A stretch of DNA of 64,000 bases, taken from assembly GCF_011045215.1 (NCBI RefSeq), contig NZ_CP049201.1. One strand, 5' to 3'. The notes below the pieces were generated by a model. That model was given only the letters and a program-made list of their open reading frames with translations, was not told the origin of the DNA and made no database searches. A program made the position numbers and the translations under genes. Below are positions 1,467 through 21,323 of the stretch, piece after piece; the stretch's first letter is position 1; the number at the start of each line of letters is the position of its first letter. Origin of the DNA: Escherichia coli. GTDB lineage: Bacteria > Pseudomonadota > Gammaproteobacteria > Enterobacterales > Enterobacteriaceae.

Positions 1467-2678
1467 TCAGTGTGATTCGCTATGAGCGACTTCGGCATTG
1501 CCATGATTCTGGCAGCCAACTTCTTCACAACGTTGCATCATGTAACCCAGCGCGACCAGCACTACTGTTGATAACATCACGCTGGTGGTGGTGAGCAATG
1601 GCGTGCTGATACTGATCAGCCAGGAAACTACCAGACTTGCGAGGAAGCACAGACCCAGTTGTAGAGTGTTCTGCAACGCTGCGGCGCGACCAGTGGCGTG
1701 TGGGAAGGGACGCAGCGCCTGGGCGACAACAATAGGGTAGATCGCGCCATTGGCAATCGCCATCACACAGAATGGGATCAGGATTTCGACCAGCGACACA
1801 TGGCTAATGAAGCCCGCAGCCCAGGTCGCAATGACGCTGACAGCAAACAGCACCAGCAACCACGGTAATAACTGCTTGCCTTGCCATTTCTGCAGCGCGG
1901 CGCGACAGCCATAACCACCAATCAGAAACGCGATAGTTTGCGGGACATAACTTAAACCAATAACTGCCGGGCTGTAGCCCATTTCACTAAGGATGAACGG
2001 TGAACCGGTCAGCCATGCAAAAAAACTGGCTGAACAGGCCGCGTATATCAGCACGTTGCCGCGATAGGTTTTAGAACGTAGCAGGTCGGTAAAGGTCAGA
2101 CCATCCTGACTATTGTTACGGGCCTTCGTCGTGGGTTTGAGCCAGAAAATAGGCAGAATCAGCACCACGGTAATGGCAAACAGGGTGGCGAAAATCGCCT
2201 GCCAGGAAAAATGGACCAGCAGCCAGCTTCCTAACAGAGGAGCCAGGGCCGGAGATAGACCCACCAGCGGCATGATGGTCGCAAAAATTCGGTTAACCTT
2301 CTGTGAAGGATAATAATCCGTCACTAACGCTTGCCAGATAACCGCCGCGGCGCAGACACCCACAGCTTGTACAAAACGCAATACCAGCAGCATAGCGGCG
2401 TTTTCTACCCACAGCATCCCCAGACTACCTAACGCAAAAATTGTCAGGCCGATTAATAATACCGGTTTACGACCATAACGGTCGGAGAGCGGCCCCCACA
2501 GAAGCTGGGCTGCGGCAAAACCGGCAAGGAACAGACTAAGGCTGGCACTGACAGCAGACGCAGGCGTTTGCAGGTCGGCCTGTATGGCGGCGAAAGCAGG
2601 CAGATACATATCGGTTGCCAGAAAACCGAGTACGCTCAAACCCGCCAGCCAGACTAAAAATCTTTTCCCAGGTTGCAT
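1467..2678 (-). CDS. punC: MFS purine nucleoside transporter
   Basis: 403-aa multi-TM ORF matching E. coli YdhC/PunC; ATG at 2678-2676. Confidence 0.9.
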
Positions 2679-2790
2679 GTATATTCTCTAAATCTCTCAA
2701 TTAAACACCGCCGCAAAGTGTAGGGAGTGAAATTAGTGTTGTGAAACGGTAATATTTGATGACTGGTTTCAAAAATTTTGCAGGTAGACT

Positions 2791-3723
2791 ATGTGGTCAG
2801 AATATTCACTCGAAGTTGTTGATGCGGTAGCGCGTAATGGTAGTTTTAGCGCTGCGGCACAGGAGTTGCATCGCGTTCCTTCTGCGGTCAGCTATACCGT
2901 GCGTCAGCTGGAAGAGTGGCTGGCGGTGCCGCTCTTTGAAAGACGGCACCGTGATGTGGAACTGACCGCTGCCGGAGCGTGGTTTCTCAAAGAAGGGCGC
3001 TCTGTTGTCAAAAAAATGCAGATCACCCGCCAGCAATGTCAGCAGATAGCGAACGGCTGGCGCGGTCAGTTAGCTATTGCAGTGGATAATATTGTCAGGC
3101 CAGAACGTACACGGCAGATGATCGTTGATTTTTATCGCCATTTTGATGATGTCGAACTTCTTGTCTTTCAGGAAGTGTTCAACGGTGTCTGGGATGCGCT
3201 TTCCGACGGGCGCGTGGAACTGGCGATTGGCGCAACACGCGCGATTCCGGTAGGCGGTCGTTATGCCTTCCGGGATATGGGGATGCTAAGCTGGAGTTGC
3301 GTTGTTGCCAGTCACCACCCGCTGGCGTTGATGGATTGCCCGTTCAGCGATGATACGTTGCGCAACTGGCCGTCGTTGGTGCGCGAAGACACCTCGCGAA
3401 CGCTACCTAAACGTATTACCTGGTTGCTGGATAACCAAAAAAGACTTGTCGTACCTGACTGGGAATCATCGGCAACCTGTATCTCGGCAGGATTATGCAT
3501 AGGGATGGTGCCAACACATTTCGCCAAACCGTGGCTTAATGAGGGGAAGTGGGTAGCATTAGAACTGGAAAACCCCTTTCCGGATTCGGCATGTTGTCTG
3601 ACATGGCAGCAAAATGATATGTCGCCTGCGTTAACCTGGTTGCTTGAGTATCTCGGCGATAGTGAGACGCTGAATAAGGAGTGGCTGCGGGAGCCGGAAG
3701 AGACTCCCGCAACGGGTGATTAA
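2791..3723 (+). CDS. punR: LysR-family transcriptional regulator
   Basis: 310-aa ORF with N-terminal HTH, divergent from punC; matches YdhB/PunR. Confidence 0.9.
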
Positions 3724-4745
3724 CGACGATAGTCGCGGAACGGGCCGTCAGCCACGGAGCGGCGTTCAATCAAGCGCGGATGCACTTCAATGGACTGCGG
3801 TTCTTCACGTTTGTTGACTATACGATCCAACAACATGTTGAACGCTGTTTCACCCAGCGAATCTTTTGGCTGATGGATCGTGGTCAGCGCCGGCGTAAAA
3901 TAGCGGGCGTTGCGCACGTTATCATAACCAATCAGCGAAACATCCTGCGGGACGCGCAGCCCCATTTCATCAGCAGCACAAAGTGCGCCCATTGCCATGA
4001 TATCGCCACCACAGAAGACGGCAGTAGGGCGATGCGGCTGCGACAGGATTTGCTGCATGGCGCGATAACCGGATTCAGGTTCAAAGTCACCCTGCACAAT
4101 CCAGCTTTCCGGCACTTTGATCATCGCTTCTTCCATCGCCTTCATAAAACCGGCAAGGCGGCCTGCGCCGGTGTTACGTTCCAGCGGGCCGGGGATAACG
4201 CCGATTTCGCGGTGACCGCGTTCAATCAGATAACGCCCGGCCATGTAGCCGCCTTCGAACGCGTTATCAATGACCGCATCGGTGAAGTCAGCTTTTGCTT
4301 CACCCCAGTCCATCACCACCATTGGAATATGGCGATACTCTTCCAGCATCGCCAGCAACGGCTCTGGGTACTCAGAACACATCACCAGCAGACCATCGAC
4401 GCGTTTTTGCGCCATCATCGACAGATAAGCCCGCTGTTTCTCAAGATTGTTCCACGCATTGCCCAGAATCAGGGTGTAACCTTTCTGGAAGCAATTTTTT
4501 TCAACTGCTTCAATGATCTCGGCAAAATAGGCCGCTTCGCTGCTGGTCGCCAGCAAACCGATAGACTTGGTGTGGTTAACCTTCAGGCTACGCGCCACCG
4601 CGCTAGGGGAGTAGTGTAATTCTTTAATCGCTGCCCACACGGCGTTGCGCGTTTCTTCAGCGACGAAACGTGTTTTGTTGATCACGTGTGACACAGTTGT
4701 AGTGGAAACGTTTGCTCGTTTCGCTACATCTTTTATTGTTGCCAT
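3720..4745 (-). CDS. purR: purine repressor PurR (LacI family)
   Basis: 341-aa ORF beginning [24 protein letters not shown], recognised as PurR. Confidence 0.97.
4703..4718 (-). promoter_or_regulatory. PUR box (purR autoregulatory operator O2, inside coding region)
   Basis: Minus-strand GAGCAAACGTTTCC matches PUR-box core; position about 30-40 nt into purR ORF as expected for O2. Confidence 0.5.
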
Positions 4746-4788
4746 TCCATTTCACTCCAGACCCTAACTTCAGCTCCTGCAAAATCGC

Positions 4789-4806
4789 AAGGTAAACGTT
4801 TGCCTT
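4789..4806 (-). promoter_or_regulatory. PUR box (purR operator O1 in 5' leader)
   Basis: AAGGTAAACGTTTGCCTT, near-palindromic PUR-box core 44-61 nt upstream of purR ATG. Confidence 0.55.
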
Positions 4807-5043
4807 TACACACCTTACGCACAACAAAAGTGTTGCGGTACGCCGGAAAAACGACACGGAGCGTCAGGAAGGGGTCAATGGCCAGTACGCAAATAGTGTA
4901 AGCGTGGAATTTTGGCCGATCTTGACGAAAAGGGGAAGTGGTAAAAACACTTATCATTATAAATGACGGGAGATTTTTTCATCACAGTGTGTAAAAATGC
5001 GTAATATCACTTTTTGTGTGGTAATAAAAAAGGAGAAAACTTG

Positions 5044-5133
5044 ATGAGCACCGACCTTAAATTTTCACTGGTAACAACGATTATCGTCCTCGGTTTGATC
5101 GTGGCCGTGGGTTTGACTGCCGCGCTGCACTGA
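5044..5133 (+). CDS. ynhF: 29-aa small membrane protein YnhF
   Basis: ATG..TGA ORF translated by hand: MSTDLKFSLVTTIIVLGLIVAVGLTAALH; hydrophobic single TM; location purR-ydhP matches known ynhF. Confidence 0.8.
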   Translation: MSTDLKFSLVTTIIVLGLIVAVGLTAALH

Positions 5134-5298
5134 TTTCCTCTCGAGGGAGCGCGTTCTCCCTCGCATCTCCTTCCTGTTTGTTAGCAAAATGGCAAAAGTG
5201 TTTTCTCTTTTTGTTATTTTCATTTTTTTGTGATTGCTGTCATGCTTTCGCCACTTTAATGAATATCGCGTAATGACGCGAAGAGGTGGAGATAAGGC

Positions 5299-6468
5299 AT
5301 GAAAATTAACTATCCGTTGCTGGCGCTGGCGATTGGCGCGTTTGGTATCGGGACAACGGAGTTCTCGCCAATGGGCTTGTTGCCCGTCATTGCGCGCGGT
5401 GTGGATGTCTCGATTCCCGCTGCCGGAATGTTAATCAGTGCCTATGCAGTTGGCGTAATGGTGGGCGCGCCGCTGATGACGCTTCTACTTTCTCATCGTG
5501 CCCGCCGCAGTGCGTTGATTTTCCTGATGGCAATTTTCACGCTAGGCAACGTACTTTCCGCCATCGCGCCGGATTATATGACCCTGATGCTTTCACGCAT
5601 TTTGACCAGCCTGAATCACGGAGCATTTTTTGGTTTGGGTTCAGTCGTGGCCGCAAGCGTGGTGCCAAAACATAAACAGGCCAGCGCAGTTGCCACTATG
5701 TTTATGGGGTTAACCCTGGCAAATATCGGTGGCGTGCCGGCGGCGACCTGGTTGGGTGAAACCATCGGCTGGCGGATGTCATTTCTGGCAACGGCGGGGC
5801 TGGGAGTGATTTCAATGGTAAGTCTGTTCTTCTCATTACCTAAAGGTGGTGCAGGGGTACGACCTGAAGTGAAAAAAGAGCTGGCGGTATTAATGCGTCC
5901 GCAGGTGCTGTCTGCATTGCTGACGACGGTACTGGGAGCTGGTGCAATGTTTACTCTCTACACCTATATCTCTCCGGTACTGCAAAGTATTACCCACGCA
6001 ACACCGGTGTTCGTCACGGCAATGCTGGTGCTGATTGGTGTCGGATTCTCTATCGGTAACTATCTCGGCGGCAAACTGGCAGATCGTTCAGTTAACGGCA
6101 CGTTGAAAGGCTTTTTGTTGCTGCTGATGGTGATTATGCTGGCAATCCCGTTCCTGGCCCGCAATGAGTTCGGCGCAGCTATTAGCATGGTGGTGTGGGG
6201 CGCTGCAACCTTTGCGGTCGTACCGCCGTTACAGATGCGCGTGATGCGTGTCGCCAGTGAAGCGCCAGGTCTGTCTTCATCAGTCAATATTGGTGCCTTT
6301 AATCTTGGAAATGCGCTGGGAGCAGCTGCTGGTGGTGCGGTAATTTCCGCTGGGCTGGGATACAGCTTTGTGCCGGTGATGGGGGCGATTGTCGCGGGAC
6401 TGGCATTATTGCTGGTGTTTATGTCAGCCAGAAAACAACCTGAAACAGTTTGCGTTGCTAACAGCTAA
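5299..6468 (+). CDS. ydhP: MFS transporter YdhP
   Basis: 389-aa 12-TM ORF matching E. coli YdhP. Confidence 0.9.
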   Translation: MKINYPLLALAIGAFGIGTTEFSPMGLLPVIARGVDVSIPAAGMLISAYAVGVMVGAPLMTLLLSHRARRSALIFLMAIFTLGNVLSAIAPDYMTLMLSRILTSLNHGAFFGLGSVVAASVVPKHKQASAVATMFMGLTLANIGGVPAATWLGETIGWRMSFLATAGLGVISMVSLFFSLPKGGAGVRPEVKKELAVLMRPQVLSALLTTVLGAGAMFTLYTYISPVLQSITHATPVFVTAMLVLIGVGFSIGNYLGGKLADRSVNGTLKGFLLLLMVIMLAIPFLARNEFGAAISMVVWGAATFAVVPPLQMRVMRVASEAPGLSSSVNIGAFNLGNALGAAAGGAVISAGLGYSFVPVMGAIVAGLALLLVFMSARKQPETVCVANS

Positions 6469-6479
6469 TTAAACAAAAA

Positions 6480-6501
6480 CGCAGAAGGATAACCTTCTGC
6501 G
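6480..6501. terminator. bidirectional hairpin between convergent ydhP and sodB
   Basis: CGCAGAAGG-ATAA-CCTTCTGCG perfect 9-bp stem, A-run upstream and T-rich downstream. Confidence 0.6.
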
Positions 6502-6530
6502 TTACAGTTGCTGACAACGTGCGATTTATC

Positions 6531-6600
6531 TTGCCGAATGCGCTGTTAACGCCTCATCCGCGTTGGCATGGTAAGCGAAGCGTATCAGGCAATACTGCAT
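6531..6600. repeat. REP-like palindromic elements (degenerate REP pair)
   Basis: GCCGAATGCG...AACGCCTCATCCGC and GCCTGATACGCTTCGCTTACCATGCC (minus) resemble REP consensus; in convergent intergenic space. Confidence 0.45.
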
Positions 6601-6613
6601 TTGCCATCAGTTA

Positions 6614-7195
6614 TTATGCAGCGAGATTTTTCGCTACGAATTCCCAGTTCACCAGCGCCCAGAAGTGCTCAAGATAGCCAGGACGTGCATTGCGATAGTC
6701 GATGTAATATGCGTGTTCCCAGACATCAACGGTTAGCAGCGGAGTCGCATCGGTGGTCAGCGGAGTACCCGCGTTAGAGGTTGAAACGATAGCCAGTTTG
6801 CCATCGCTGTTTTTCACCAGCCAGGTCCAGCCAGAACCAAAGTTTTTGATCGCTGCATCAGTAAACTGAGCTTTGAAATCGGCAAAGCTGCCAAAAGATG
6901 CGGCGATAGCTTCAGCGACTTTTCCAGTCGGTTCGCCACCGGCGTTCGGTGCCAGGCAGTTCCAGTAGAAAGTATGGTTCCAGACCTGAGCTGCGTTGTT
7001 GAATACGCCACCTTCAGAGCTGCGAATAATCTCTTCCAGTGATTTACCTTCAAACGCGGTACCTTTGATCAGGTTGTTCAGGTTAGTGACATAAGTCTGA
7101 TGATGCTTGCCGTAGTGATACTCGATGGTTTCCGCAGAAATATGCGGTGCCAGAGCATCTTTAGCATATGGTAGTGCAGGTAATTCGAATGACAT
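6614..7195 (-). CDS. sodB: iron superoxide dismutase
   Basis: 193-aa [39 protein letters not shown], recognised as SodB. Confidence 0.97.
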
Positions 7196-7221
7196 TGCTA
7201 CTCTCCTTTATTATTAATTTG

Positions 7222-7251
7222 CATACGTACAATAGCCTTATTGTGCGTATG
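7222..7251 (-). promoter_or_regulatory. palindrome in sodB promoter/5' leader
   Basis: CATACGTACAATA-GCCT-TATTGTGCGTATG, 13-bp arms with 1 mismatch, 27-56 nt upstream of sodB ATG. Confidence 0.45.
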
Positions 7252-7322
7252 GATAGGGTAGCAAATTAAAAGGTGAGACAAAAGATGAACTTACCCTGTT
7301 GCCGTAACAACAGGGTAAAGTT

Positions 7323-8150
7323 TTAGCGAAGTGTTTTTGGGGTCATTACCCGGCGAGCGCCAACGTAGTGGCGCTGCCAGTAGTCTTCACTGAGAGAAGT
7401 GATTTGAATTTCCTGACCCGTACGCGGTGACTGAATAAATTTGCCGTTGCCGACATACACACCGACATGATCGGCTGTACCGCGTCCCTGAGTACGGAAA
7501 AAGACCAGGTCGCCGTTTTTCAGTTCACTACGTTCGATTGGCGCTGCATCACGCAGGTGATACATTTCATTCGCCGTACGCGGAATACGAATTTTTACCA
7601 AATCTTTATAAGCGTAATAAACCAGGCCGCTGCAATCAAAACCGGTACGCGGTGAGCTGCCACCCCAACGATATGGCTTACCAATTTGCTGCATCAGTTT
7701 ATTCATTGCCACTTTTGTGGCTTTTTGCACCTTCGCTTTGTGTGCGTCGGCAAGGGTTCCTGACGCGGCATTTTTGACTTTCACACAATGCGATTTATAG
7801 CCCTTACGTTTGGTACACTTTTCGGTAAAGCTGGCTGAGGCCGTTTTATTGACGGTATGTTTGCTGCGAGTTTTGGCGTTTTTAGAAGCGGTAATGGAAG
7901 ATTTTTTAACGGAAGAAGCGGTTTTGCTTTTGGTCGTACTTTTACTGGCGGCTTTTTTCGCTGTTTTCTGGCTGGCTTTCTGGGTCTTTTTGGTGGTTGC
8001 CGTGCTTTTCTTTTTATCTGCTTTTTTGGTGATATGAGTGGTAGCAGAACTCTCCCTGGCTTGCTTTGAAGCATGGGCCATAGGCGTTAAAGGCAGGGTG
8101 GTAAAAAGTAAAGCACAGAGCGTGATCGAAATACGGTTTATCCGCGCCAC
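7323..8150 (-). CDS. mepH: NlpC/P60 peptidoglycan DD-endopeptidase MepH
   Basis: 275-aa ORF (GTG start) with signal peptide, K/T/S-rich linker and C-terminal NlpC/P60 domain (GFDCSGLV); matches YdhO/MepH. Confidence 0.9.
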   Translation of the reverse strand: MARINRISITLCALLFTTLPLTPMAHASKQARESSATTHITKKADKKKSTATTKKTQKASQKTAKKAASKSTTKSKTASSVKKSSITASKNAKTRSKHTVNKTASASFTEKCTKRKGYKSHCVKVKNAASGTLADAHKAKVQKATKVAMNKLMQQIGKPYRWGGSSPRTGFDCSGLVYYAYKDLVKIRIPRTANEMYHLRDAAPIERSELKNGDLVFFRTQGRGTADHVGVYVGNGKFIQSPRTGQEIQITSLSEDYWQRHYVGARRVMTPKTLR

Positions 8151-8484
8151 TGAGCGTCCCTCTGTTAAGGCAGGTCTATCATGCCTGCGTCTGATTTACA
8201 AAACTTGATGATTCTAATGCATAGAAGAAGAGAAAGTTAATAGCTTTTATTGTTAAAAAATACGTTTCGTTGGCGAGCGCAAAAAAATGCAGCAGTGAAA
8301 GCTAAAAATGGTTATAAATACGCCAGTTTGCCGTGCATCAGGGAAGAAACGAATATTTGAAATGCAACAAATAGAGCAAAGGGATAAAATAGCAAAAGCG
8401 TGATGAAAATGTTATTTTCCGATGCCGCACTGACCCGCTACAATGTCAGATTACTGCCGTAAAGAAGTTTGAGGAAGCAAGACA

Positions 8485-8832
8485 ATGAGCACCACTATCG
8501 AAAAAATCCAACGCCAGATTGCTGAAAACCCGATCCTGCTGTACATGAAAGGTTCACCGAAACTGCCGAGCTGCGGTTTCTCTGCCCAGGCAGTACAGGC
8601 GCTTGCCGCATGTGGCGAACGTTTTGCCTATGTTGATATTCTGCAGAATCCGGACATTCGTGCGGAGCTGCCGAAATATGCTAACTGGCCGACCTTCCCG
8701 CAACTGTGGGTTGACGGCGAACTGGTCGGCGGTTGTGATATTGTGATCGAAATGTATCAGCGTGGCGAACTGCAGCAGCTGATCAAAGAAACTGCCGCTA
8801 AATACAAGTCTGAAGAGCCGGACGCGGAATAA
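8485..8832 (+). CDS. grxD: monothiol glutaredoxin Grx4
   Basis: 115-aa ORF with CGFS motif (PSCGFSAQ). Confidence 0.95.
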   Translation: MSTTIEKIQRQIAENPILLYMKGSPKLPSCGFSAQAVQALAACGERFAYVDILQNPDIRAELPKYANWPTFPQLWVDGELVGGCDIVIEMYQRGELQQLIKETAAKYKSEEPDAE

Positions 8833-8846
8833 TCCGTCCTGCAATA

Positions 8847-8874
8847 CTGACGGATGCGAACGGGCATCCGTCAG
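8847..8874 (+). terminator. hairpin downstream of grxD
   Basis: CTGACGGATGC-GAACGG-GCATCCGTCAG 11-bp stem directly after grxD stop; weak U-tract. Confidence 0.5.
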
Positions 8875-8882
8875 TCCTTTAT

Positions 8883-11800
8883 CTATCCCCAATCCAGCCC
8901 TTGTGGCGAACTTGAAAATCCCGCCTCACGCAGCAGCGTAAACATCGGCGTTTGCCGGACCGGTAGATCATTCACTTCTGTTAGCGTAAAGCGCAGCCGT
9001 GGTTCGCGACGCAGTGCGGTAGTCAGCGCGTGGAAAACCTCTGGGGCGAGTAATTCCTCTTTTTCCTGCCAGACCAGCATTTTTTTGCCACCTTGCGCCA
9101 GATAGAGTAACAATTTGCCGCCAGAAACGACCACCAGCGCACCCGCCCGACGCGTTGGTACCAGCGTTGCCGGATGTGCAGGCCAGGGCAGAAGATTTCC
9201 CCACACATTAGCCGGATCGTTGGCGGAGAGCGCCACTGGTGTATAGTGGCGCGTTTGCGCGGCTTGTGTCGCCAGGTCGCGCAAGCGGTCAATAGTCAGA
9301 CGTTCAGCGAATTGCGCGCCACCCAGACCTTCTACAAAACGACCTCGCATAATTCGCCCGGAGTCTTCCATACTTCGACAAAGCGTTTGCATCGATGGAA
9401 ACCCGCCAGGGATATTTTCGGCTATCACCGCCTGACGACTGATGATGCCGTAGCGGTCGAGCATATTTTCCGCCAGCGCCAGCATCCTTTCGGTATCGTT
9501 TAGTGGCTCCACCTGCAATAACGACCAGCGTCCAGCCAGATTTGGTGTGTTGTAAGATACCCGCGGCGAGACGGGTTGTGCATAGACAGGACGCCCACGA
9601 CGAGCCCGGTGACTGCGGCGAGTTGAGGTGCGTGCGTTGGAACTGCTGCGGGTGAGGGCGCGTAACGGTGCCCAAATATCGCTGGTGATGACGCCTTGCC
9701 AGACCAGCGCCCATAACGCCTCTTGCAGTGCCGAGGGATCAACCGATTCGCCGATTTTGTCGCGTATCCGTTGGCTGATTTGTTGTGCAAACCAGGCTCC
9801 TCCGTCAGCCAGAACAGCGACTATCGCTTGTTGCAGCGCCGAACGATTCGCCTGATCCGCTTCGGCGGGAGTGAACGATTCTGCAGCATATTCCTGTAGA
9901 TGCAGTGCCACCAGGCCGTCATCTTCACCCAGTTTTTTTTGCCCCGACCAGATAACCGCACCGGTTGCCAGTAATTCATCGAGCATTTCTGGCGAATAGT
10001 CGCGTACGCGGGCAGGCAGGATCTGGCTTTCCCAGAGTGAGGCGGGTAAGCCGACTCCGGCAAGCTGTTCGATTACCCGCATCACGCCATCTACGCCCTC
10101 ATAAACGCCTGGCGATGTTGAGGCAAAGAGCGCCGGGCTACCATCGGTGGCGGGTAATACGCCCTGACGTTCCAGCAGCAATCGCGCATAGGTCGTGGCT
10201 GCAACGGGACGCGTCGCTTCTCTGGCGGCTTGCAGCGAGCGCAAACGCAGACGACGAAATACTTCATCGCTCACCCAGATGTCTTGTTGCAGATTCATCA
10301 CCAGACCCTGTTCGCGCAGTTGCTGAAGCTGCTCTTCGACAATGGCAATACCGAGACTAAACTCATGAGCCAGTTGTTCAGCCGTGACCAGAGCATGAGC
10401 CCGGAGATAGCGCAGAAAGAGGTCGCGAAGCGGGTAACTGACTCTATGCAAATAAATCTCTGGCAGAGACTCTGGTAGTTGTACGCCGAGGGCATCGCGC
10501 AGCCTGGCGGCATCATCCATACAGGCAAGACGCTCCTGTCCGCTAATCATCGCCGGGAAGATTCGTTTTACTGTAAGAAGATTTTCCAGATACGACGCAA
10601 TCTCTTCACTGCTGCCTGTATGCCGTTGCGCCAGGTCTTCAACGGTCATTGGCCCCAGTTCGCGCAGCAGGTCGAACAATCCTTCTTCACCTTTCGCTCT
10701 TCTGCCAGGAGCCAGTCGTTGCAACTCTTCTTCCACCTGGCGAATGACCTGCGGGTCGAGTAATTCCCCGGATCGACCTGTCCGAGTAGATTGCGCAGTA
10801 ACTCGCTGTCCAGCGACAGTACGGATGCCCGGCGCTCTGCCAGCGGGGCGTCGCTCTGGTACATAAATTCCGCGACATAGCCGAACAATAAACTTGTGGC
10901 GAAAGGCGAGGGCGTAGTAGTCGTTACATCGGATATTTGAATTTCGCCACCGTTCAGGCGACGCATCAAACGTTCCAGTGCGGGAAGATCATAAACATCT
11001 TGCAGACATTCGCGTAGGGTTTCGAGAATGACCGGAAAATCCGGATATCCCTGAGCGATTTCCAGCAACTGACTGGCGCGCAGCCGTTGTTGCCAGAGCG
11101 GGGTGCGATGGCCCGGCGTGCGGCCCGGCATTAATAACGCCCGCGCGGCGCATTCGCGAAAACGGGCGGCGAAAAGTGCTGAGCTGCCTACCGCCTCGCG
11201 GACAATTTGCAGCAACTTTTCTGGTTCAAACAAAAAAATCGCGGCGTCGGGCAATTTACCATCAGTGTCAGGAATGCGCGCAACAATGCCGTCATCACTG
11301 GCGACCACAGACGCGTCAGCGCCCCATAGCGCATGTATTCGCCCGGCAATCGCCAGCGCCCAGGGTTCATGCACCCGTCTTCCATAGGGAGAGTGCAAAA
11401 TAATACGCCAGTCGCCAATTTCATCACGGCACCGTTCGAGGACCAGATGACGACTCCCCGGAACGATGCCCGTCGCGTTGCGCTGCTCGTCAATCAACCC
11501 CTGAATATTGGCGATCGTATTTTCTTCAGCCAGCCACGGGGGAATAGTCCCGGAAAAGAACGCGCCATCCGCCAGTAAATGAAGAAAATCGCCGATCATC
11601 TCGCCTAATTCAGCCGGACGTCCGTTACCTTCACCACGCCAGAAGGGGAGCCGGGCAGAACGACCCGGAGCAGGAGTCACAATCACCTGATCGCGGGTGA
11701 TTTGCTGTATCCGCCATGAGGTAGCGCCGAGAGTGATAATGTCGTTCACCCGCGACTCATATACCATCTCCTCATCCAGTTCACCCACCCGCCGCGAACC

Positions 11801-13498
11801 GGCCTGTTCTTCACCTTCGGGTAATAACACGCTATACATGCCACGATCCGGAATGGTGCCACCGCTGGTAACCGCCAACAGCTGAGCGCCAGGTCGGGCG
11901 GTCAATATCCCGGTCTCCCTGTTCCAGACCAGTTTTGGTCGAAAAGCAGAAAAATCGCCAGAGGGATAGCGCCCGGAAAGCATATCCAGCGTGGCGTCAA
12001 AAACACGTCTTGGCAGATCTTTCCACGGTGCGGCACGGCGTACGCGGGAGTACCATTCGTCTACCTGTAATGCATCCATCGCCGCGGCGGCAACGGTTTG
12101 CTGCGCAAGGACGTCGAGTGGATTATGCGGAGGTGTCAGGTTTTCCAGCCTGCCTGCGAACATACACTCTACAATGACTGCGGAATCGACTAAGTCACGC
12201 CGGGTTCGGGGGAAAAAAAGCCCTTTGGAGATACCTCCTACCTGGTGTCCGGCACGTCCAATGCGTTGTAACCCACTGGCAACAGAAAGCGGCGTTGCCA
12301 CCTGAATCACCAGATCCACCGCGCCCATATCAATCCCCAGTTCGAGACTGGAAGTTGCGACCACGCAGCGTAATTCACCCGATTTCAGCGCCTGTTCGGT
12401 GATTGCTCGTTGTTCTTTAGAGACGGAGCCGTGGTGTGAGCGGGCAATAAAAACGTCGCTACTTTGTACACGGTTAGAGGTTGCGCCGGAGGTCGACTCG
12501 AAATGGGCCACATCAACGGCGATAGAAGGGGAACGCTGTAAGCGTGCGGCGTAAAGCTCATTTAATCGTGCCGTCAGTTTTTCCGCCAGCCCCCGCGAAT
12601 TAGTAAAGACAATGGTCGAGCGATGGCGCAACACTTCATCAAGGATACCCGTTTCAATATATGGCCAGATGGAGCCTTCCCGGCCGGCATGGCTGTCTTC
12701 GCCAGTGCCGCTGGCGACCGATGAGACATCATCCATATTGGCGACCGGTACGACAATCCGTATCTGCGGATAGCGCATTGCGGGTGGGTTGACTACCGTA
12801 ACCGGGCGATCGCCGCCAAGAAATGCTGCCACATCGCTGGCTGAGCGCACAGTGGCAGAAAGGCCAATTCGCTGTGCTGAGGTGTGGAGCAGCGCATCGA
12901 GCCGCTCCAGACTTAACGCCAGATGCGCGCCACGTTTACTGCCCGCTACCGCGTGGACTTCATCAATAATTACCGTTTCGACGCCGCGTAGCGTTTCGCG
13001 CGCGCGGGAGGTCAGCATCAGATAGAGTGATTCGGGTGTGGTGATCAGAATATCCGGCGGATTACGGGTGAGTTTGCTGCGTTCCTGTGCAGGCGTATCG
13101 CCAGTACGGATCCCCACGCGAAGATTGACTTCCGTTTCGCCGCGCCGCCGCCGTTCATCGGCAATACCCTTCAACGGGATCTGCAAGTTGCGCTGAACGT
13201 CGGTGCCCAGGGCTTTTATCGGTGAAATATAGAGAATGCGTGAGGTTTTACGCTTATGCGCCTCGCGGGTATCTTCGCCGCCTTCGCGGAAGAGCCGATC
13301 GAGGGCGTAGAGAAATGCTGCCAGCGTTTTCCCGGAGCCGGTCGGTGCAATCACCAGCGCATGTTCGCCTCGCGCCGCCACATGCCAGGTTTGCGACTGG
13401 ACAGCGGTCGGCTGTTTAAAGGCGCTAAGAAACCAGTCGCGGGTCGCCGGTGAAAACACGTCCGGCAGGGGCGATGAAAGGTTTGGATTATCTGCCAT
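8883..13498 (-). pseudogene. lhr: lhr (large ATP-dependent helicase-related protein) disrupted by -1 frameshift
   Basis: Two overlapping ORFs (950 aa at 10646..13498; 617 aa at 8883..10736) in different frames; total span 4616 nt is one nt short of the 4617 needed for 1538 aa + stop; frame change maps to C4 run at 10756-10759 (GATCCGGGG on coding strand). Confidence 0.8.
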
Positions 13499-13590
13499 TA
13501 ACGCTATTCCCCGTGAATATCATGCATGATGCGTGGAATAGCCTCACTATAGATGCCTGAATCATTGCATGTCATCAGGCATCGACTCGA

Positions 13591-14238
13591 TTACACCTCT
13601 TCGGCGGCAGGTAGCGGCCAGCCTCCCAGACGTTTCCAGCGGTTGACGATTTCACAAAACAGCACCGCAGTGCGTTCGGTGTCGTACAGCGCGGAGTGCG
13701 CCTGGGTGCTGTCGAAGTCCATGCCAGCGGTCTGGCAAGCCTTTGACAATACGGTTTGTCCGAGTGCCAGCCCGGCCAGTGCAGCAGTGTCAAAAGTGGC
13801 GAAAGGGTGGAACGGGTTACGTTTCAGTGAGGCGCGTTCTGCGGCGGCCATCATAAAGCTGTGATCGAAATTGGCGTTGTGCGCCACCATAATGGCGCGG
13901 TTACAGCCGCTCGCTTTAATACCTTTACGTACAACTTTAAAAATTTCGTGCAGCGCCTCGTATTCGCTGACCGCGCCGCGATCGGGATCGTTCGGGTCAA
14001 TGCCGTTGAAGGCAAGGGCTTCTGGTTGCAAATTTGCGCCGACAAATGGTTCGACGTGGAAATGTAATGTGGTGTCCGGCATCAGCCAGCCTTGTTCATC
14101 CATTTTCAGGGTGATGGCGGCAATCTCAAGCAGCGCATCGGTTTTGGCGTTAAATCCGGCTGTTTCAACATCGATCACAACAGGATAAAAACCACGAAAA
14201 CGGTCGCACAGACCGGTAAGTTGAGCGTTATCGGACAT
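13591..14238 (-). CDS. rnt: ribonuclease T
   Basis: 215-aa ORF, DEDDh exonuclease motifs, recognised as RNase T. Confidence 0.95.
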
Positions 14239-14340
14239 CTGATTCTCTTAATACGGATAAATTGCAGCGCGCATTATGACAAATATTACTTGTCGATGCA
14301 GTAAAGATGCGGGCGCGATGAGTTCGCGCCCGGCAGGAGA

Positions 14341-14748
14341 TTAGTTGCCCAGACCGCGACCGGCGTCTTTCTCTTCGATTAACTCAATTTTGTAACCGTC
14401 CGGATCTTCCACAAACGCGATAACCGTAGTACCGCCTTTTACCGGACCCGCTTCACGGGTCACGTTACCCCCATTTTGACGGATTTTTTCGCACGCTTCA
14501 GCGGCATTATCTACGCTAAGCGCGATGTGACCATAAGCAGTGCCGAGTTCGTATTTATCCACGCCCCAGTTGTAGGTCAGTTCAATCACCGCTTCTTCGG
14601 TTTCCGGGCCGTAGCCAACAAACGCCAGTGAGTATTTGTATTCCGGGTTTTCGCTGGTACGCAGCAGTTTCATGCCCAGAACTTTGGTATAAAAATCGAT
14701 GGAGCGTTGCAGATCGCCAACGCGCAGCATGGTATGAAGAAGACGCAT
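14341..14748 (-). CDS. gloA: glyoxalase I (lactoylglutathione lyase)
   Basis: 135-aa [29 protein letters not shown], recognised as GloA. Confidence 0.96.
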
Positions 14749-14828
14749 CTTTTTATCCTCAAAATGGCTAACAGATTCAAAATGTTGTTTTAGTATAGCG
14801 GCGGCTTTACGCCGCTCGCAATGTTGGA

Positions 14829-15926
14829 TTACAACGTCGGGTAATCAGTGTAGCCTTCCGCACCGCCACCATAGAAACTTTCAGCACGCTGTGGGTTAAG
14901 CTCAGCTTTGCGCTGCAAGCGGGCGACCAGATCCGGGTTCGCAATCCAGTCACGACCAAATGCCACCGCATCAATTAACCCTTTGCCAATCAGCGTTTCG
15001 GCTTTTTCTACCGTGTATGCACCTGCGCCGATAATCGGACCGTGGAAACGTGCGCGTACTTTTTCGCGGAACGCATCAGTATACGGTTCACCTCCCGCCC
15101 AATCTGGTTCTGACATATGCAGATAAGCAATGCCGCGTTTACCCAGTTGTTCAATCAGATACAGTGCATCGGCTTCTTCATTCGGGCCGTTATCTGTGTT
15201 CTGGAAAGTACCGATTGGCGAAACGCGAATGCCAATGCGATCGGCACCCCATTCTTCAATCCCTGCATCGACCACTCCCAGCACCAGACGTGCGCGATTT
15301 TCCACGCTGCCGCCGTACTGATCGGTACGATGGTTTGAAGAAGGAGAAAGGAACTGATGCAGCAAATAACCGTGAGCAGAGTGGAGCTCCACCAGATCAA
15401 AACCGGCTTCACGCGAGTTAGCAATGGCCTGACGGAAATCATTGACGATACCTGGAATCTCTTCCAGTTCAAGGGCACGCGGCATGGATGTTTCAACGCG
15501 GATCGCCTGACCATTTTCATCGCGCAGAGAAGTACGTGTTCCCGCGCTAAGTGCTGAAGGCGCTACCGGTGCCTGACCGCTAGGTTGCAGGCTGGCGTGA
15601 GAAATGCGTCCAGTGTGCCACAGCTGTACGGCCATATGCCCATTTTCAGCATGAACGCCAGCGGTAATTTTTTTCCATGCGGCAATTTGTTCCGGACTAT
15701 GGATGCCAGGTGCACCAGCATACCCTTTTGCCTGGGCAGAAATTTGCGTGGCTTCGCTAATAATCAAACCGGCACTGGCACGTTGGCGATAGTATTCCGC
15801 CATCAACGGGGTAGGGATGTCACCCGGTTCAATACTGCGCAGACGCGTCAGCGGTGCCATAAAAATACGGTTTGCCGCAGTTATTGCGCCCACTTTCAGT
15901 GGGGAATACAGTTTTTCAGATGACAT
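14829..15926 (-). CDS. nemA: N-ethylmaleimide reductase (OYE family)
   Basis: 365-aa old-yellow-enzyme-like ORF in nemR-nemA-gloA arrangement. Confidence 0.95.
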
Positions 15927-15962
15927 AAAGGCTCCCGGTCGTCTGGTGATAAAAAATGCCTG

Positions 15963-16562
15963 CTAAACGGCAGGCGTCGCAATAATGTTTTTTACATGTG
16001 CCAGCGCGTTTTCCAGCGGCTCGGAATTGCGCGAAATTTTGGCCTGCAGATTCGCACCCAGCCATAGTGCGTAAAGCACTTGTGCCTGTTGCAGCGGTTC
16101 GCCACAAAAGGTTAAACAGTGGTTCTCACGGCCATTTTCCAGAGCCTGCGAGAGCAGGGCGATCACGCCGCGAGCGCCTTTATCCATCGCGCTACGCATA
16201 TCTTCTGACAGATCGCACACTTCGGCAGAGAGTTTTACTGTCAGGCATCCACTGATGGTTCCATGTTGGCAAAACTGGTTCAGTGTTTGCTGGTAATAAG
16301 CCAGTATGCGGTCGCGGTAGTTACCTTCGCCGGATTGCAGCAACTCAGTCAGTCGCTGGTGATATGCGGCATAATGGCGCTCAAGCATGGCAACGCCAAA
16401 CGCCTCTTTAGAGCGAAAGTAGTGATAGAAGGACCCTTTCGGCACTTCAGCGGTTTTTAGTAATTCGCTTAGCCCCATCCCGGTGAATCCACGTTGCAGG
16501 CAAAGTTGCTCGCCCGTCGCCAGGAGATGTTCGCGAGTATCATGTTCGGTGTGTTTGTTCAT
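15963..16562 (-). CDS. nemR: TetR-family repressor NemR
   Basis: 199-aa ORF with N-terminal TetR HTH immediately upstream of nemA. Confidence 0.93.
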   Translation of the reverse strand: MNKHTEHDTREHLLATGEQLCLQRGFTGMGLSELLKTAEVPKGSFYHYFRSKEAFGVAMLERHYAAYHQRLTELLQSGEGNYRDRILAYYQQTLNQFCQHGTISGCLTVKLSAEVCDLSEDMRSAMDKGARGVIALLSQALENGRENHCLTFCGEPLQQAQVLYALWLGANLQAKISRNSEPLENALAHVKNIIATPAV

Positions 16563-16576
16563 GTGTTGGAGTGTAG

Positions 16577-16592
16577 TAGACCAGTCGGTCTA
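16577..16592. promoter_or_regulatory. NemR operator (NemR box)
   Basis: TAGACCAGTCGGTCTA inverted repeat 15-30 nt upstream of nemR ATG. Confidence 0.7.
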
Positions 16593-16664
16593 GTGCAAGC
16601 AAAGTTGCTACTTTGGGCATTAACAGCTTCAATAATGGTAATAATCTTATCTGAGGAGGGCGAG

Positions 16665-16904
16665 GTGGCGGAGCAATTAGAATTCTTTCCCGTCCAGAGC
16701 CCGTGCCGGGGAATTTGCCAGTCTGACGAACGCGGGTTTTGTCGCGGCTGTTTTCGTAGTCGGGATGAGCGTTTTAACTGGAATAAAATGAGCGATGGCG
16801 AAAAACAAGAGGTGCTGCGCCTTTGTCGGCAACGATTAATGCGCAAATTACGTGCAAATAAGCCAGCGTCATCAGACGAACCGGAGCAACCATCACTCTT
16901 TTGA
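16665..16904 (+). CDS. ydhL: DUF1289 Cys-rich small protein YdhL
   Basis: 79-aa reading frame from GTG at 16665 preceded by GAGGAGGG; CxxC..CxxC motif; the 136-aa track ORF is an upstream extension. Confidence 0.75.
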   Translation: MAEQLEFFPVQSPCRGICQSDERGFCRGCFRSRDERFNWNKMSDGEKQEVLRLCRQRLMRKLRANKPASSDEPEQPSLF

Positions 16905-16952
16905 GCCTAATCTTGCGTATACTCCTCTCATATCTGATAAGAGGAAGCGATT

Positions 16953-17849
16953 ATGGTTCAGCGTATTACTATTGCGCCGCAAGGCCCGGAGTTTTCCCGT
17001 TTTGTGATGGGCTACTGGCGATTGATGGACTGGAACATGTCCGCCCGCCAGCTGGTCAGTTTTATTGAAGAGCATCTGGATCTCGGCGTGACCACCGTGG
17101 ACCATGCTGATATTTATGGTGGCTATCAGTGCGAAGCGGCGTTTGGCGAGGCGCTGAAACTGGCACCTCACCTGCGTGAGCGGATGGAAATCGTCAGTAA
17201 ATGCGGTATCGCGACGACCGCGCGTGAAGAAAACGTCATTGGTCATTACATCACTGACCGCGATCACATCATTAAGAGCGCCGAACAGTCGCTAATTAAT
17301 CTTGCGACCGATCATCTGGATCTGCTGTTAATCCACCGCCCGGACCCGTTAATGGATGCCGATGAAGTGGCGGACGCGTTCAAACATCTGCATCAGAGCG
17401 GCAAAGTGCGTCATTTTGGCGTATCGAACTTTACGCCTGCGCAATTTGCCCTGTTGCAATCACGTCTGCCGTTTACCCTTGCCACTAATCAGGTGGAAAT
17501 ATCCCCGGTACATCAGCCGTTACTGCTGGATGGCACGCTCGACCAACTGCAACAACTGCGTGTTCGTCCGATGGCGTGGTCCTGCCTTGGTGGTGGTCGT
17601 CTGTTTAATGATGATTATTTCCAGCCGCTGCGTGATGAACTGGCTGTGGTGGCGGAGGAGTTAAACGCGGGCTCGATTGAACAGGTGGTTTACGCCTGGG
17701 TACTACGTTTACCGTCACAGCCGCTGCCAATTATCGGCTCAGGTAAAATTGAGCGCGTACGGGCAGCTGTCGAAGCAGAAACACTGAAAATGACCCGTCA
17801 ACAATGGTTTCGTATCCGTAAAGCGGCACTGGGTTACGACGTACCGTAA
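16953..17849 (+). CDS. ydhF: aldo-keto reductase family oxidoreductase YdhF
   Basis: 298-aa ORF matching YdhF. Confidence 0.9.
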   Translation: MVQRITIAPQGPEFSRFVMGYWRLMDWNMSARQLVSFIEEHLDLGVTTVDHADIYGGYQCEAAFGEALKLAPHLRERMEIVSKCGIATTAREENVIGHYITDRDHIIKSAEQSLINLATDHLDLLLIHRPDPLMDADEVADAFKHLHQSGKVRHFGVSNFTPAQFALLQSRLPFTLATNQVEISPVHQPLLLDGTLDQLQQLRVRPMAWSCLGGGRLFNDDYFQPLRDELAVVAEELNAGSIEQVVYAWVLRLPSQPLPIIGSGKIERVRAAVEAETLKMTRQQWFRIRKAALGYDVP

Positions 17850-17929
17850 GCACTTTTAGGAATAGCCGCCGTTCAAAAATGTGTCACTGGTTTACACTTA
17901 TTCAGGAATGCACAATGAACGGAGGTCCT

Positions 17930-18451
17930 ATGAAACGTTTTAGTCTGGCTATTCTGGCGCTGGTTGTTGCAACCGGCGCACAAGCTGCCAGTGAAAAAGT
18001 CGAGATGAACCTCGTCACGTCGCAAGGGGTTGGGCAGTCAATTGGTAGCGTCACCATTACTGAAACCGATAAAGGTCTGGAGTTTTCGCCCGATCTGAAA
18101 GCATTACCTCCCGGTGAACATGGCTTCCATATTCATGCCAAAGGAAGCTGCCAGCCAGCCACCAAAGATGGCAAAGCCAGCGCCGCGGAATCCGCAGGCG
18201 GGCATCTTGATCCACAAAATACCGGTAAACATGAAGGGCCAGAAGGTGCCGGGCATTTAGGCGATCTGCCTGCACTGGTCGTCAATAATGACGGCAAAGC
18301 TACCGATGCCGTCATCGCGCCTCGTCTGAAATCACTGGATGAAATCAAAGACAAAGCGCTGATGGTCCACGTTGGCGGCGATAATATGTCCGATCAACCT
18401 AAACCGCTGGGCGGTGGCGGTGAACGCTATGCCTGTGGTGTAATTAAGTAA
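17930..18451 (+). CDS. sodC: periplasmic Cu,Zn superoxide dismutase
   Basis: 173-aa ORF from ATG at 17930 with signal peptide MKRFSLAILALVVATGAQA and Cu/Zn SOD His ligands; track ORF is longer upstream. Confidence 0.93.
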   Translation: MKRFSLAILALVVATGAQAASEKVEMNLVTSQGVGQSIGSVTITETDKGLEFSPDLKALPPGEHGFHIHAKGSCQPATKDGKASAAESAGGHLDPQNTGKHEGPEGAGHLGDLPALVVNNDGKATDAVIAPRLKSLDEIKDKALMVHVGGDNMSDQPKPLGGGGERYACGVIK

Positions 18452-20464
18452 TTAAGAGGCCAGCGTACCTTGCGGTGGTGCTTGCTCAAGTTGAGAAAGC
18501 GAGCAGTACAGCCGCCAGACAATTGCCGCCAGCTCACGGGCGGCAGGTTGATGATGACGGGCAAGGTTGTCGCAAATCCGCTGTAATTCTTCAAGTGTGG
18601 CCGCCAGTGATTTTTGCTGAACGCCACGCTCACTCATCACTCCCCGCAACAGTGAAATACAGTTATCCCGTACTCGCGATAACGGATCGGAACGCGATTC
18701 CCAGCCGCGTAATTGCCAGACAACATGAGAACAGTTCAGCAGCACTACACCCCAGCGTAATAACCAACGGCGAGCCAGTGCATCCTGGCTGTTACTCAAC
18801 TGACTGACGTGATGATAAGTGAGCGATTCAAATTCGCTTTCACTCAGTGTTGGATGGCGGCTTAGTTGATCGACAAAATCCCGGCGCAGCGCGCGAATAT
18901 GGCGGCGGCTTTTGCGAGCATCCGATCCTGGACGCAGAATGGCGAACGCTAACCACGCCAACGCGACGCCAACGATTTTTGCCAGATTATCGTTAAGAAA
19001 ATCAGCAAAATCATACACCGGGGGATTAGTTACAGCGATAAAAGAACCCATAAAAACAATCAGTTGCCCCCACAATGCGGCAAATTTTGGCATCTGCAAT
19101 TTAAGAAGCTGCATTGTCGCCAGCAGTGGAAAGAGAAACAGTAAAAATTGCCACAGATCGCTAATCTGGACCATCAGACCAAATTTGACCACAAAGCTGA
19201 ATAGCGAAAGTAACACCAGCGTGCGCATCAGCAGTGACAACGACTTAAACGGTGCTGCGACGGCGGAGTAGAGTACGCAGCTAATTGCTGCCAGCGTTAA
19301 TGCATTGGCACCGGCATCCCATTGCGAAGCAATACTCCATGCGCCAATCATCATCAACGTACAAAATGTACGCAGCCCGCTCCACATAGCTTCGGCGTTA
19401 TCGGTATGACGAGCCAGGCCGGATGTCCGTGGGAGTCTGGTATGATCATCTACACCGCTTTGCAGACGATGTAATTCCTGACTACTTTGCAGATAAAGGC
19501 GGCAAAAATAACGTAGTCGCTGCCAGAAGGCGACGTGCCGATAGTCGGCGACGTTGGTCGGGCGTAGCGGGGCGATAATACGTGCGACGGTGTAAACATC
19601 TGTTTGCGAACTGGCGAGCGCCGTCAGCAACTGTTCGAGAATTTTTCGTGTGGCACCTGGCGGTGAGGGCCAGTTGAGCAACATACGTCGCAGGCTGGAG
19701 ATGACACTGGTCATACGTAATTGCTGGTGGAGCAGCGCATTAAGGCGCGCGTTTTGCTGGCGAAAACGATAGTGGCTCCAGAAAGCCTGGATACGCAGCA
19801 AATTCATGGTCAGTATCTGCCCAATCACCCCTTCATGTGCTGCACGAATGGCATCGGTTGTTTCAGGCTGCCAGAGTAAACTGGCATGTTCAAGTAGTCG
19901 GGCGTGCATGTTTTTCAATGCGGTTAAAAGGGCTGTAGCATCGGAACTGCTAGGCAGGATCATCATCATCATGCCGCCGCACAAAATACCGACAATCACC
20001 TCGCAAACGCGCGCCTGAGCGATATCCCACAGCTGGCTGGCCTCAGTAATATTAACCATCGGAAAGGCGATGATGGCAGCCGTGTAGCCCGCCAGTTGAA
20101 ATGCATACGCGACGTTATTCGTGAAGTGCGCACAGGCCCAGGTACAAAAGCCAAGCCACGCCGACATGCTCAATAGAAAAAACCACGGCTCATTGAGCGT
20201 ATGTCCGGCAAGAAGCAGTGCCGCAATGGCTCCCAGTAAACTGCCAGCGATGCGTCCGAGGCTTTTGCTGATGACACCGCCAACGGTGGGAAAGCTAACC
20301 ACTGCAGCCGAGGTCATCGCCCAATAGGGTTCATCCAGATTCAAATAATAGGCAACCGTCAGCGCCAGACACATAGCAATGGTATTGCGTAACGCATAAC
20401 GCCATTGCGCCAGCGTGGCCCTGAACCAGGGCAAATTGCGCAAGGACCATGACGATGCGTTCAT
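18452..20464 (-). CDS. ydhK: FUSC/AaeB-family putative efflux protein YdhK
   Basis: 670-aa multi-TM ORF matching YdhK. Confidence 0.88.
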
Positions 20465-21321: not shown

Positions 21322-21323
21322 AG

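What the first reader, a model, noticed from the sequence alone, without database searches (positions are those of the whole stretch)
10646..10760. lhr is split by a -1 frameshift in a C4 homopolymer
The lhr locus spans 4616 nt (8883..13498), one short of the 4617 needed for the 1538-aa K-12 protein. The N-terminal ORF stays in frame for about 911 residues through ...LLGQVDPG, then reads NYSTRR... and stops after 950 aa. The C-terminal 617 aa continue in another frame from ...VEEELQRLAPGRR. Translating by hand, inserting one G at the GGGG run (coding strand GAT CCG GGG | GAA TTA CTC) restores ...DPGELLDPQVIRQVEEELQ. So this is either a genuine pseudogene, leaving a helicase core without its C-terminal domain, or a homopolymer sequencing error. 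If real, it separates the helicase core from the C-terminal domain.
Basis: seen in the sequence. Interest (0 to 1): 0.6.

Follow-up and report, generated by a model that had tools for sequence, protein, structure and literature searches.

The report
One-base deletion splits E. coli lhr
In this E. coli strain the non-essential DNA-repair helicase gene lhr has lost one G from a run of five, which cuts the protein just after its helicase half; this is an ordinary strain-specific frameshift, probably real rather than a sequencing error, in a gene that about a fifth of E. coli strains lack anyway.

Summary
It is broken into a 950-aa ORF and a 617-aa ORF. The cause is a G4 run (C4 on the + strand) at 10766-10769, where other E. 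coli have G5. Adding one G restores a 1538-aa protein.

The deletion is probably real. An independent assembly of SRA run SRR11014969 is identical to the window over 18,077 nt. It is the only coding indel across about 59 kb compared with the closest complete genome. All 64 homopolymers of 6 nt or longer keep their length. It is also recent and private: the gene differs from an intact allele by one SNP plus this gap, and only 1 of 4371 other complete genomes has G4, in an unrelated lineage where PGAP calls it 'frameshifted'.

The break follows Gly911, so the whole helicase core is kept and the C-terminal glycosylase and oligomerisation domain is cut off; Pfam WH2_Lhr starts at residue 912. About 19% of complete E. 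coli genomes have lost most of lhr. I found no sign of programmed frameshifting or phase variation. This is an ordinary finding of low interest.

The parts
8883..13498 (-). Whole lhr locus, 4616 nt, disrupted by a 1-nt deletion. It is the last gene of the rnt-lhr pair.
   Evidence: Intact orthologues are annotated 'lhr: ATP-dependent helicase', 4617 nt.
10766..10769 (-). G4 run on the coding strand (C4 on the + strand), the site of the deletion. Other E. coli have G5 here.
10646..13498 (-). ORF1, 950 aa: native Lhr residues 1-911 (DEAD, Helicase_C, WH_Lhr and DEAD_assoc, the complete Lhr-Core), then 39 out-of-frame residues and a TGA stop.
   Evidence: 5v9x Lhr-Core aligns to residues 10-876.
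10649..10765 (-). The 39 out-of-frame codons, NYSTRR...ANWGQ, that replace native residues 912-950.
8883..10736 (-). ORF2 in the native C-terminal frame, 617 aa from GTG (Val922). It encodes WH2 (partly), WH3, WH4 and the C-terminal end, which in K-12 carries the glycosylase residue Asp1536.
   Evidence: PMC10953399.
10646..10649 (-). ATGA overlap. The ORF1 stop TGA (10648-10646) overlaps ATG (10649-10647) of Met951, the start of a 588-aa ORF2 product called by the gene finder on the Logan contig. It is a possible termination-reinitiation site, probably there by chance.
13591..14238 (-). rnt (RNase T), the gene upstream of lhr on the same strand.
8485..8832 (+). grxD, convergent with lhr. No gene lies downstream of lhr on the same strand, so polar effects are not expected.

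Best explanation
This is a genuine, recent, strain-specific 1-nt deletion (G5 to G4, most simply by replication slippage in the run) in the coding strand of lhr. It shifts the frame after Gly911.

Inferred consequence: the cell makes a polypeptide of about 105 kDa, comprising the complete Lhr helicase core (residues 1-911) plus 39 unrelated residues. The C-terminal domain is no longer attached. That domain carries the uracil-DNA glycosylase site (Asp1536) and the module that makes Lhr oligomeric. From published work on EcoLhr-Core (1-877), the truncated protein should be a monomeric ATPase and 3'-5' translocase with weakened helicase activity and no glycosylase activity.

This amounts to a partial or complete loss of function in a non-essential repair gene. 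The expected phenotype is at most the mild peroxide and AZT sensitivity reported for a full lhr deletion.

Shown here: the deletion, its position relative to the domains, its rarity, and its reproducibility in a second assembly. Inferred: the origin by slippage, expression of the truncated protein, and the phenotype.
For: - Sequence and repair.
- Second assembly: Logan contig SRR11014969_135 encodes exactly the same 950-aa product and is 100.000% identical to window 5422-23498 over 18,077 nt with no gaps.
- Assembly quality: against PapM-32-1, about 59 kb aligned, the lhr gap is the only indel inside a CDS; the others are intergenic (with annotation). Against NZ_OZ197100.1 it is the only indel in 16 kb.
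- Homopolymers: of 231 runs of 5 nt or longer, 229 keep their length, including all 64 runs of 6 nt or longer. That is not the pattern of homopolymer-prone reads.
- Contrast case: contig SRR33768395_112 shows what an error-prone assembly looks like, with three GTT to GTTT insertions that break lhr and nemA.
- Domain position.
- Biochemistry of core and CTD: PMC8053096 and PMC10953399.
- Dispensability: 1043 of 5425 complete genomes hold less than 80% of lhr. The eight such genomes among the rows listed keep 3-5% of it, and in JCM 5491, the one inspected, only about 230 bp lie between rnt and grxD.
Against: - No reads were available and the platform of SRR11014969 is unknown. If the window's assembly and the Logan assembly come from the same reads, they would share a systematic error.
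- The gene shows no other decay, only 1 SNP against the intact PapM-32-1 allele. That fits a very recent mutation, but it also fits a consensus error.
- The exact 950-aa product is on record from a single contig.
- The only other complete genome with G4, 2013C-4974, belongs to a different lineage (98.4% identity). No lineage is therefore seen to inherit the allele.
Confidence: 0.8

Rival explanations
1. Sequencing or assembly artefact: the genome really has G5 and an intact 1538-codon lhr, and one base was lost in the consensus.
For: - The change is a single-base change in run length, the commonest type of consensus error.
- The allele otherwise differs from an intact one by a single SNP.
- It is essentially unique among complete genomes.
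- Both assemblies may derive from the same run.
Against: - A 5-nt run is short for such errors.
- All 64 runs of 6 nt or longer, and 165 of the 167 five-nt runs, match the relative in length.
- There is no other coding indel in about 59 kb.
- A de Bruijn assembly made directly from the reads gives the same base count.
Confidence: 0.15
2. Functional split gene: the deletion is real, and both halves are made. The halves would be a monomeric Lhr-Core helicase and a separate C-terminal glycosylase fragment, translated by termination-reinitiation at the ATGA overlap (Met951, 588 aa). Lhr function would then be divided rather than lost.
For: - The ORF1 stop and the Met951 ATG overlap as ATGA.
- A GGGG stretch lies upstream, at -4.7 kcal/mol to the anti-SD against -5.7 for lhr's own start.
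- Purified Lhr-CTD alone has UDG activity and Lhr-Core alone is an active translocase (PMC10953399; PMC8053096).
Against: - The SD-like stretch is only 3 nt from the ATG, and 26% of internal 20-nt windows in lhr pair at -4.0 kcal/mol or better, so it is not above background.
- The 588-aa product would lack the first 39 residues of the WH2 module.
- Stand-alone CTD binds DNA poorly and is much less active than full-length Lhr.
- The ATGA arrangement is an expected by-product of reading Met-Thr (ATG ACC) one base out of frame.
- No lineage conserves the arrangement.
Confidence: 0.1
3. Recoding or phase variation: full-length Lhr is still made by -1 ribosomal slippage on G_GGG, or the run switches length reversibly as a contingency locus.
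For: A P-site tRNA-Gly slipping back one base on C-CGG-GGA would re-pair perfectly with GGG. It would then read GAA, giving the exact wild-type sequence. This follows from reading the sequence.
Against: - There is no X XXY YYZ heptamer.
- The 86 nt downstream fold no better than shuffles (z = -0.61).
- A 4-5 nt run is too short for known phase-variable tracts.
- Only 1 of 4371 other genomes differs at this run.
- Intact strains need no frameshift here, so selection for stimulatory elements is not expected.
Confidence: 0.02

Closest known systems
E. coli K-12 Lhr (large helicase-related protein, 1538 aa; Lhr-Core plus Lhr-CTD)
   Same: - Same locus between rnt and grxD.
- 98.3% nucleotide identity to a K-12 derivative (H68).
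- Same Pfam architecture once one G is restored.
- Strong match to the M. smegmatis Lhr structures 7lhl and 5v9x.
   Different: The reading frame is broken after residue 911, so no single 1538-aa product is encoded.
lhr pseudogene of E. coli 2013C-4974 (NZ_CP027587.1, locus C6998_RS08130, PGAP note 'frameshifted')
   Same: - Identical G4 allele over the 80 nt around the run.
- The gene is also 4616 nt.
   Different: The genetic background differs, at 98.4% identity over 8 kb with 114 mismatches. This is an independent event or an independent error, not shared ancestry.
Recombinant EcoLhr-Core (aa 1-877) studied by Warren et al. 2021 (PMC8053096)
   Same: The predicted ORF1 product contains all of this fragment, which is a monomeric, active ATPase and translocase that unwinds RNA:DNA hybrids less well than full-length Lhr.
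   Different: The natural product carries 34 more native residues (878-911) and a 39-residue out-of-frame tail. Its stability and activity are untested.
Natural near-complete lhr deletion in many E. coli (e.g. type strain JCM 5491)
   Same: Loss of intact Lhr in a wild strain.
   Different: In JCM 5491 about 4.4 kb are removed, leaving about 230 bp of gene ends. Here a single base is lost and both halves stay readable.

Membership tests
Lhr helicase family (Lhr-Core plus Lhr-CTD) | SF2 helicase motor (DEAD and Helicase_C) followed by the Lhr winged-helix domain and DEAD_assoc (domain 4) | tested here: met
   DEAD 31-218, Helicase_C 350-417, WH_Lhr 446-616 and DEAD_assoc 679-867, all in ORF1; 5v9x aligns to 10-876, E = 7.5e-295.
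Lhr helicase family (Lhr-Core plus Lhr-CTD) | C-terminal domain of tandem winged-helix modules (WH2-WH6) plus a beta-barrel | tested here: met
7lhl aligns to 10-1479.
Lhr helicase family (Lhr-Core plus Lhr-CTD) | Core and CTD encoded as one continuous polypeptide (1538 codons in E. coli) | tested here: not met
   4616 nt, with the frame broken after codon 911.
Frameshifted pseudogene (as flagged by NCBI PGAP) | An indel that is not a multiple of three, relative to intact orthologues, with both halves still alignable to the full-length protein | tested here: met
   The identical allele in NZ_CP027587.1 is annotated 'frameshifted'.
Frameshifted pseudogene (as flagged by NCBI PGAP) | The mutation is present in the DNA of the organism, not only in the assembly | tested here: inconclusive
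   It is reproduced in the Logan assembly of SRR11014969, and the window is otherwise free of coding indels. The reads themselves could not be inspected.
Programmed -1 ribosomal frameshift site | Slippery heptamer X XXY YYZ in the zero frame | tested here: not met
   the sequence is GAT CCG GGG AAT. Only a single-tRNA slip on G_GGG is possible.
Programmed -1 ribosomal frameshift site | Stimulatory downstream RNA structure | tested here: not met
   minimum free energy -22.6 kcal/mol against a shuffle mean of -20.9, z = -0.61.
Programmed -1 ribosomal frameshift site | The frameshift arrangement is conserved among relatives | tested here: not met
   only one of the 4371 matching genomes carries G4; at this run the rest differ from the window.
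Phase-variable homopolymer (contingency locus) | Long homopolymer tract whose length varies among closely related strains | tested here: not met
   The run is 4-5 nt. Only 1 of 4371 genomes deviates.

The most novel reading that the evidence does not exclude
The deletion creates a natural separation-of-function allele. A monomeric Lhr-Core helicase and an N-terminally trimmed C-terminal glycosylase fragment (Met951-1538, started by termination-reinitiation at the ATGA overlap) would both be made and act as separate proteins. This would resemble the organisms that encode core-only Lhr and stand-alone AlkZ-like glycosylases. A small amount of full-length protein might also arise by -1 slippage on G_GGG.
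Probability: 0.08. Interest if true: 0.3.

Novelty: already known. Interest (0 to 1): 0.1.

Why it matters
It matters little beyond annotation. The gene should be annotated as a frameshifted lhr pseudogene, not as two separate helicase-like genes. If the deletion is real, the strain is a natural mutant that keeps the Lhr motor but has lost the attached uracil-DNA glycosylase and oligomerisation domain. It could therefore serve as a ready-made separation-of-function allele for groups studying Lhr. Because about a fifth of complete E. coli genomes have already lost most of lhr, one more loss-of-function allele says nothing new about E. coli biology.

Tried and rejected
- Shigella-style decay or IS activity as the cause: rejected. 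The window aligns colinearly with E. coli PapM-32-1 and has no other broken genes.
- Metagenome scan for the G4 allele: no hits. The G5 control found only 3 contigs, so the scan is uninformative.
- Tracing SRR11014969 or its sequencing platform in the literature: nothing found. The PapM-32-1 paper's supplement does not list the run.
- Second Logan contig with the same 588-aa ORF2 product (SRR33768395): not a second case. It has G5 and is broken by different GTT to GTTT insertions that look like artefacts.
- Shine-Dalgarno test for independent translation of ORF2: the pairing is not above the background inside lhr.
- Downstream RNA structure test for programmed frameshifting: negative.
- Tandem Repeats Finder on the rsxC repeat region: no rows.

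Full report
**Observation**

The six-frame ORF list shows two long minus-strand ORFs between grxD (8485-8832, +) and rnt (13591-14238, -). One is 950 aa at 13498..10646, and the other is 617 aa, GTG-started, at 10736..8883. Together they span 4616 nt.

The coding strand reads ...GGA CAG GTC GAT CCG GGG AAT TAC TCG.... The motif GATCCGGGGAATTACTC occurs once in the window, at 10774-10758, which puts the G4 run at 10766-10769.

Inserting one G gives a 1538-aa ORF with a single terminal stop that reads ...LLGQVDPGELLDPQVIRQVEEELQ.... The last native residue is Gly911. Codons 912-950 are out of frame (NYSTRR...ANWGQ) and end at TGA 10648-10646.

The one exception is position: the run lies six bases outside the stated interval 10646-10760.

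**What the intact gene looks like elsewhere**

- A 701-nt query around the site matches 4383 complete E. coli genomes. The best hits are 99.9% identical and one base longer, and all are annotated 'lhr: ATP-dependent helicase'.
- The closest genome over the first 25 kb is PapM-32-1, at 99.5%. Its lhr is 4617 nt and intact.
- Base-by-base alignment places the gap in the run, CCCC against CCCCC on the + strand. Within lhr the two sequences differ by only one SNP, at 9285, plus this gap.
- NZ_OZ197100.1 shares a rare insertion with the window elsewhere (see 'Seen in passing'). It also has an intact G5 lhr, and the lhr gap is the only indel in 16 kb of alignment.

**Real mutation or artefact**

Four results favour a real mutation.

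1. The exact 950-aa product is on record from a Logan assembly of SRA run SRR11014969. That 28-kb contig is 100.000% identical to window 5422-23498, 18,077 nt with no gaps. The window is longer than that contig, so it comes from a different assembly.
2. Across about 59 kb aligned to PapM-32-1, all other indels fall between genes. They lie at 22237 between slyA and slyB, at 24109 and 24154 between anmK and mliC, at 52221 between ydgA and manA, and at 55296 and 55404 at or after the fumB stop (annotation).
3. Of 231 homopolymers of 5 nt or longer in the aligned 49.5 kb, 229 keep their length, including all 64 of 6 nt or longer. Homopolymer-prone chemistry would hit the long runs first.
4. A real error-prone assembly turned up by chance, Logan SRR33768395_112. 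It has G5 at this site but three GTT to GTTT insertions that break lhr twice and nemA once. The window shows nothing like that pattern.

Several points count against certainty. The reads and the sequencing platform could not be examined. The two assemblies may share the same reads. The gene shows no secondary decay. The allele is private.

I put the probability of a real deletion at about 0.8 and of an artefact at about 0.15.

**Rarity**

An 80-nt query centred on the run finds one other complete genome with G4 among 4371, E. coli 2013C-4974. PGAP marks its lhr as a 'frameshifted' pseudogene of 4616 nt.

That strain is only 98.4% identical to the window over the 8-kb locus. The coincidence is therefore an independent slippage event or an independent error.

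A metagenome scan for the G4 allele found nothing. The G5 control found only three contigs, so this test has no power.

**Position relative to the protein's architecture**

| Feature | Residues | Source |
|---|---|---|
| DEAD | 31-218 | |
| Helicase_C | 350-417 | |
| WH_Lhr | 446-616 | |
| DEAD_assoc | 679-867 | |
| WH2_Lhr (from model position 1) | 912-1016 |, offset 582 |
| WH3_Lhr | 1130-1206 | |
| WH4_Lhr | 1334-1416 | |

- All four core domains lie in ORF1.
- The first changed residue, 912, is exactly where WH2_Lhr begins.
- The M. smegmatis Lhr-Core crystal structure 5v9x aligns to residues 10-876, and full-length 7lhl aligns to 10-1479.
- Published borders for E. coli are Core 1-877 (PMC8053096) and Core 1-897 with CTD 898-1538 (PMC10953399).
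- The break is therefore 14-34 residues past the core/CTD border.

**Likely consequence (inference from published biochemistry)**

- EcoLhr-Core 1-877 is a monomer and keeps ATPase and translocase activity. It unwinds RNA:DNA hybrids less well than full-length Lhr and did not unwind DNA:DNA. Full-length Lhr is oligomeric through the CTD.
- The CTD carries a uracil-DNA glycosylase activity that needs Asp1536. It works alone, but much less well than in the full-length protein.
- A full lhr deletion gives mild AZT sensitivity and H2O2 sensitivity.
- The ORF1 product (911 native residues plus a 39-residue tail, about 105 kDa) should therefore be a monomeric motor without glycosylase activity.
- lhr is the last gene on its strand here and grxD is convergent, so no polar effect on other genes is expected.

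**Could the C-terminal half still be made?**

The ORF1 stop overlaps an in-frame ATG of the native frame, as ATGA with Met951. The gene caller on the Logan contig called a 588-aa product from there. A GGGG stretch precedes it, at -4.7 kcal/mol to the anti-SD against -5.7 for lhr's own start.

However, that stretch sits only 3 nt from the ATG, and 26% of internal 20-nt windows in lhr pair at -4.0 kcal/mol or better. The product would also lack the first 39 residues of WH2. Reinitiation is possible, but nothing specifically supports it, and I give it about 0.1.

**Recoding or phase variation**

- A single-tRNA -1 slip on G_GGG would recreate the wild-type sequence (read).
- There is no canonical heptamer, and the 86 nt downstream fold no better than shuffles (z = -0.61).
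- The arrangement is not conserved, and a 4-5 nt run is too short for known contingency tracts.
- I give this about 0.02.

**Context that lowers the interest**

With the whole gene as query, 5425 genomes match but only 4382 cover at least 80% of it. The eight low-coverage genomes among the rows listed retain only 3-5%.

In the type-strain genome JCM 5491, only about 230 bp of lhr ends remain between rnt and grxD. They are annotated as two partial pseudogenes. So about 19% of complete E. coli genomes lack a complete lhr, and those sampled keep only 3-5% of it.

**Verdict**

This is a frameshifted lhr, most likely a real and very recent 1-nt deletion private to this isolate. It is the same kind of event that PGAP already flags in another genome. 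Novelty: already known. Interest: 0.1.

**Seen in passing**

- The lhr region (about 6-14 kb) is almost identical to PapM-32-1, with 2 mismatches in 8 kb. Flanking regions differ by 5-17 per kb, and 49-59 kb is only 95.4% identical. This is a recombination mosaic.
- In the rsxC repeat region PapM-32-1 carries 480 nt more than the window.
- The window has a 1.75-kb insertion between rstB and rstA that encodes a 447-aa cation:dicarboxylate symporter family transporter. The insertion is found at this site in only one other complete genome and otherwise on four plasmids.

Noticed in passing
window 8883-13498; L004 (NZ_AP035801.1) 7001-7229: About 19% of complete E. coli genomes (1043 of 5425) hold less than 80% of lhr, and the eight such genomes among the rows listed keep only 3-5%. 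In the type strain JCM 5491 only about 230 bp of the two gene ends remain between rnt and grxD, annotated as partial pseudogenes.
   Followed up: partly
window 59147-60896: A 1.75-kb insertion lies between rstB and rstA and carries a 447-aa ORF (59325-60668, minus strand), annotated elsewhere as a cation:dicarboxylate symporter family transporter. It is at this chromosomal site in only 1 of 5426 complete genomes (NZ_OZ197100.1, environmental isolate, Netherlands) and is otherwise on four 85-150 kb plasmids at 99.3-99.5% identity. No flanking inverted or direct repeats were found.
   Followed up: partly
window 33490-33626 (rsxC): PapM-32-1 has 480 nt (160 codons, in frame) more than the window in the repeat region of rsxC, with copies 88-90% identical to the window's single stretch. 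Tandem Repeats Finder reports no array in the window itself.
   Followed up: partly
window 1-64000 against L003 and L005 (PapM-32-1): Divergence is mosaic. There are 2 mismatches in 6-14 kb, 5-17 per kb in most of 14-49 kb, only 95.4% identity in 49-59 kb and 99.5% again in 60.9-64 kb. This suggests recombination blocks, with lhr inside a block nearly identical to PapM-32-1.
   Followed up: no
L007 (Logan SRR33768395_112), matching window 10660, 13083 and 15200: An unrelated assembly has three GTT to GTTT insertions that split lhr into three ORFs and nemA into two. This looks like a context-specific sequencing or assembly error. It has G5 at the run studied here.
   Followed up: yes
L001 (NZ_CP027587.1) 1308-5923: E. 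coli 2013C-4974, from a different lineage, carries the same G4 allele of lhr and is annotated 'frameshifted'. Whether that is a recurrent slippage event or an assembly error in that genome was not resolved.
   Followed up: partly
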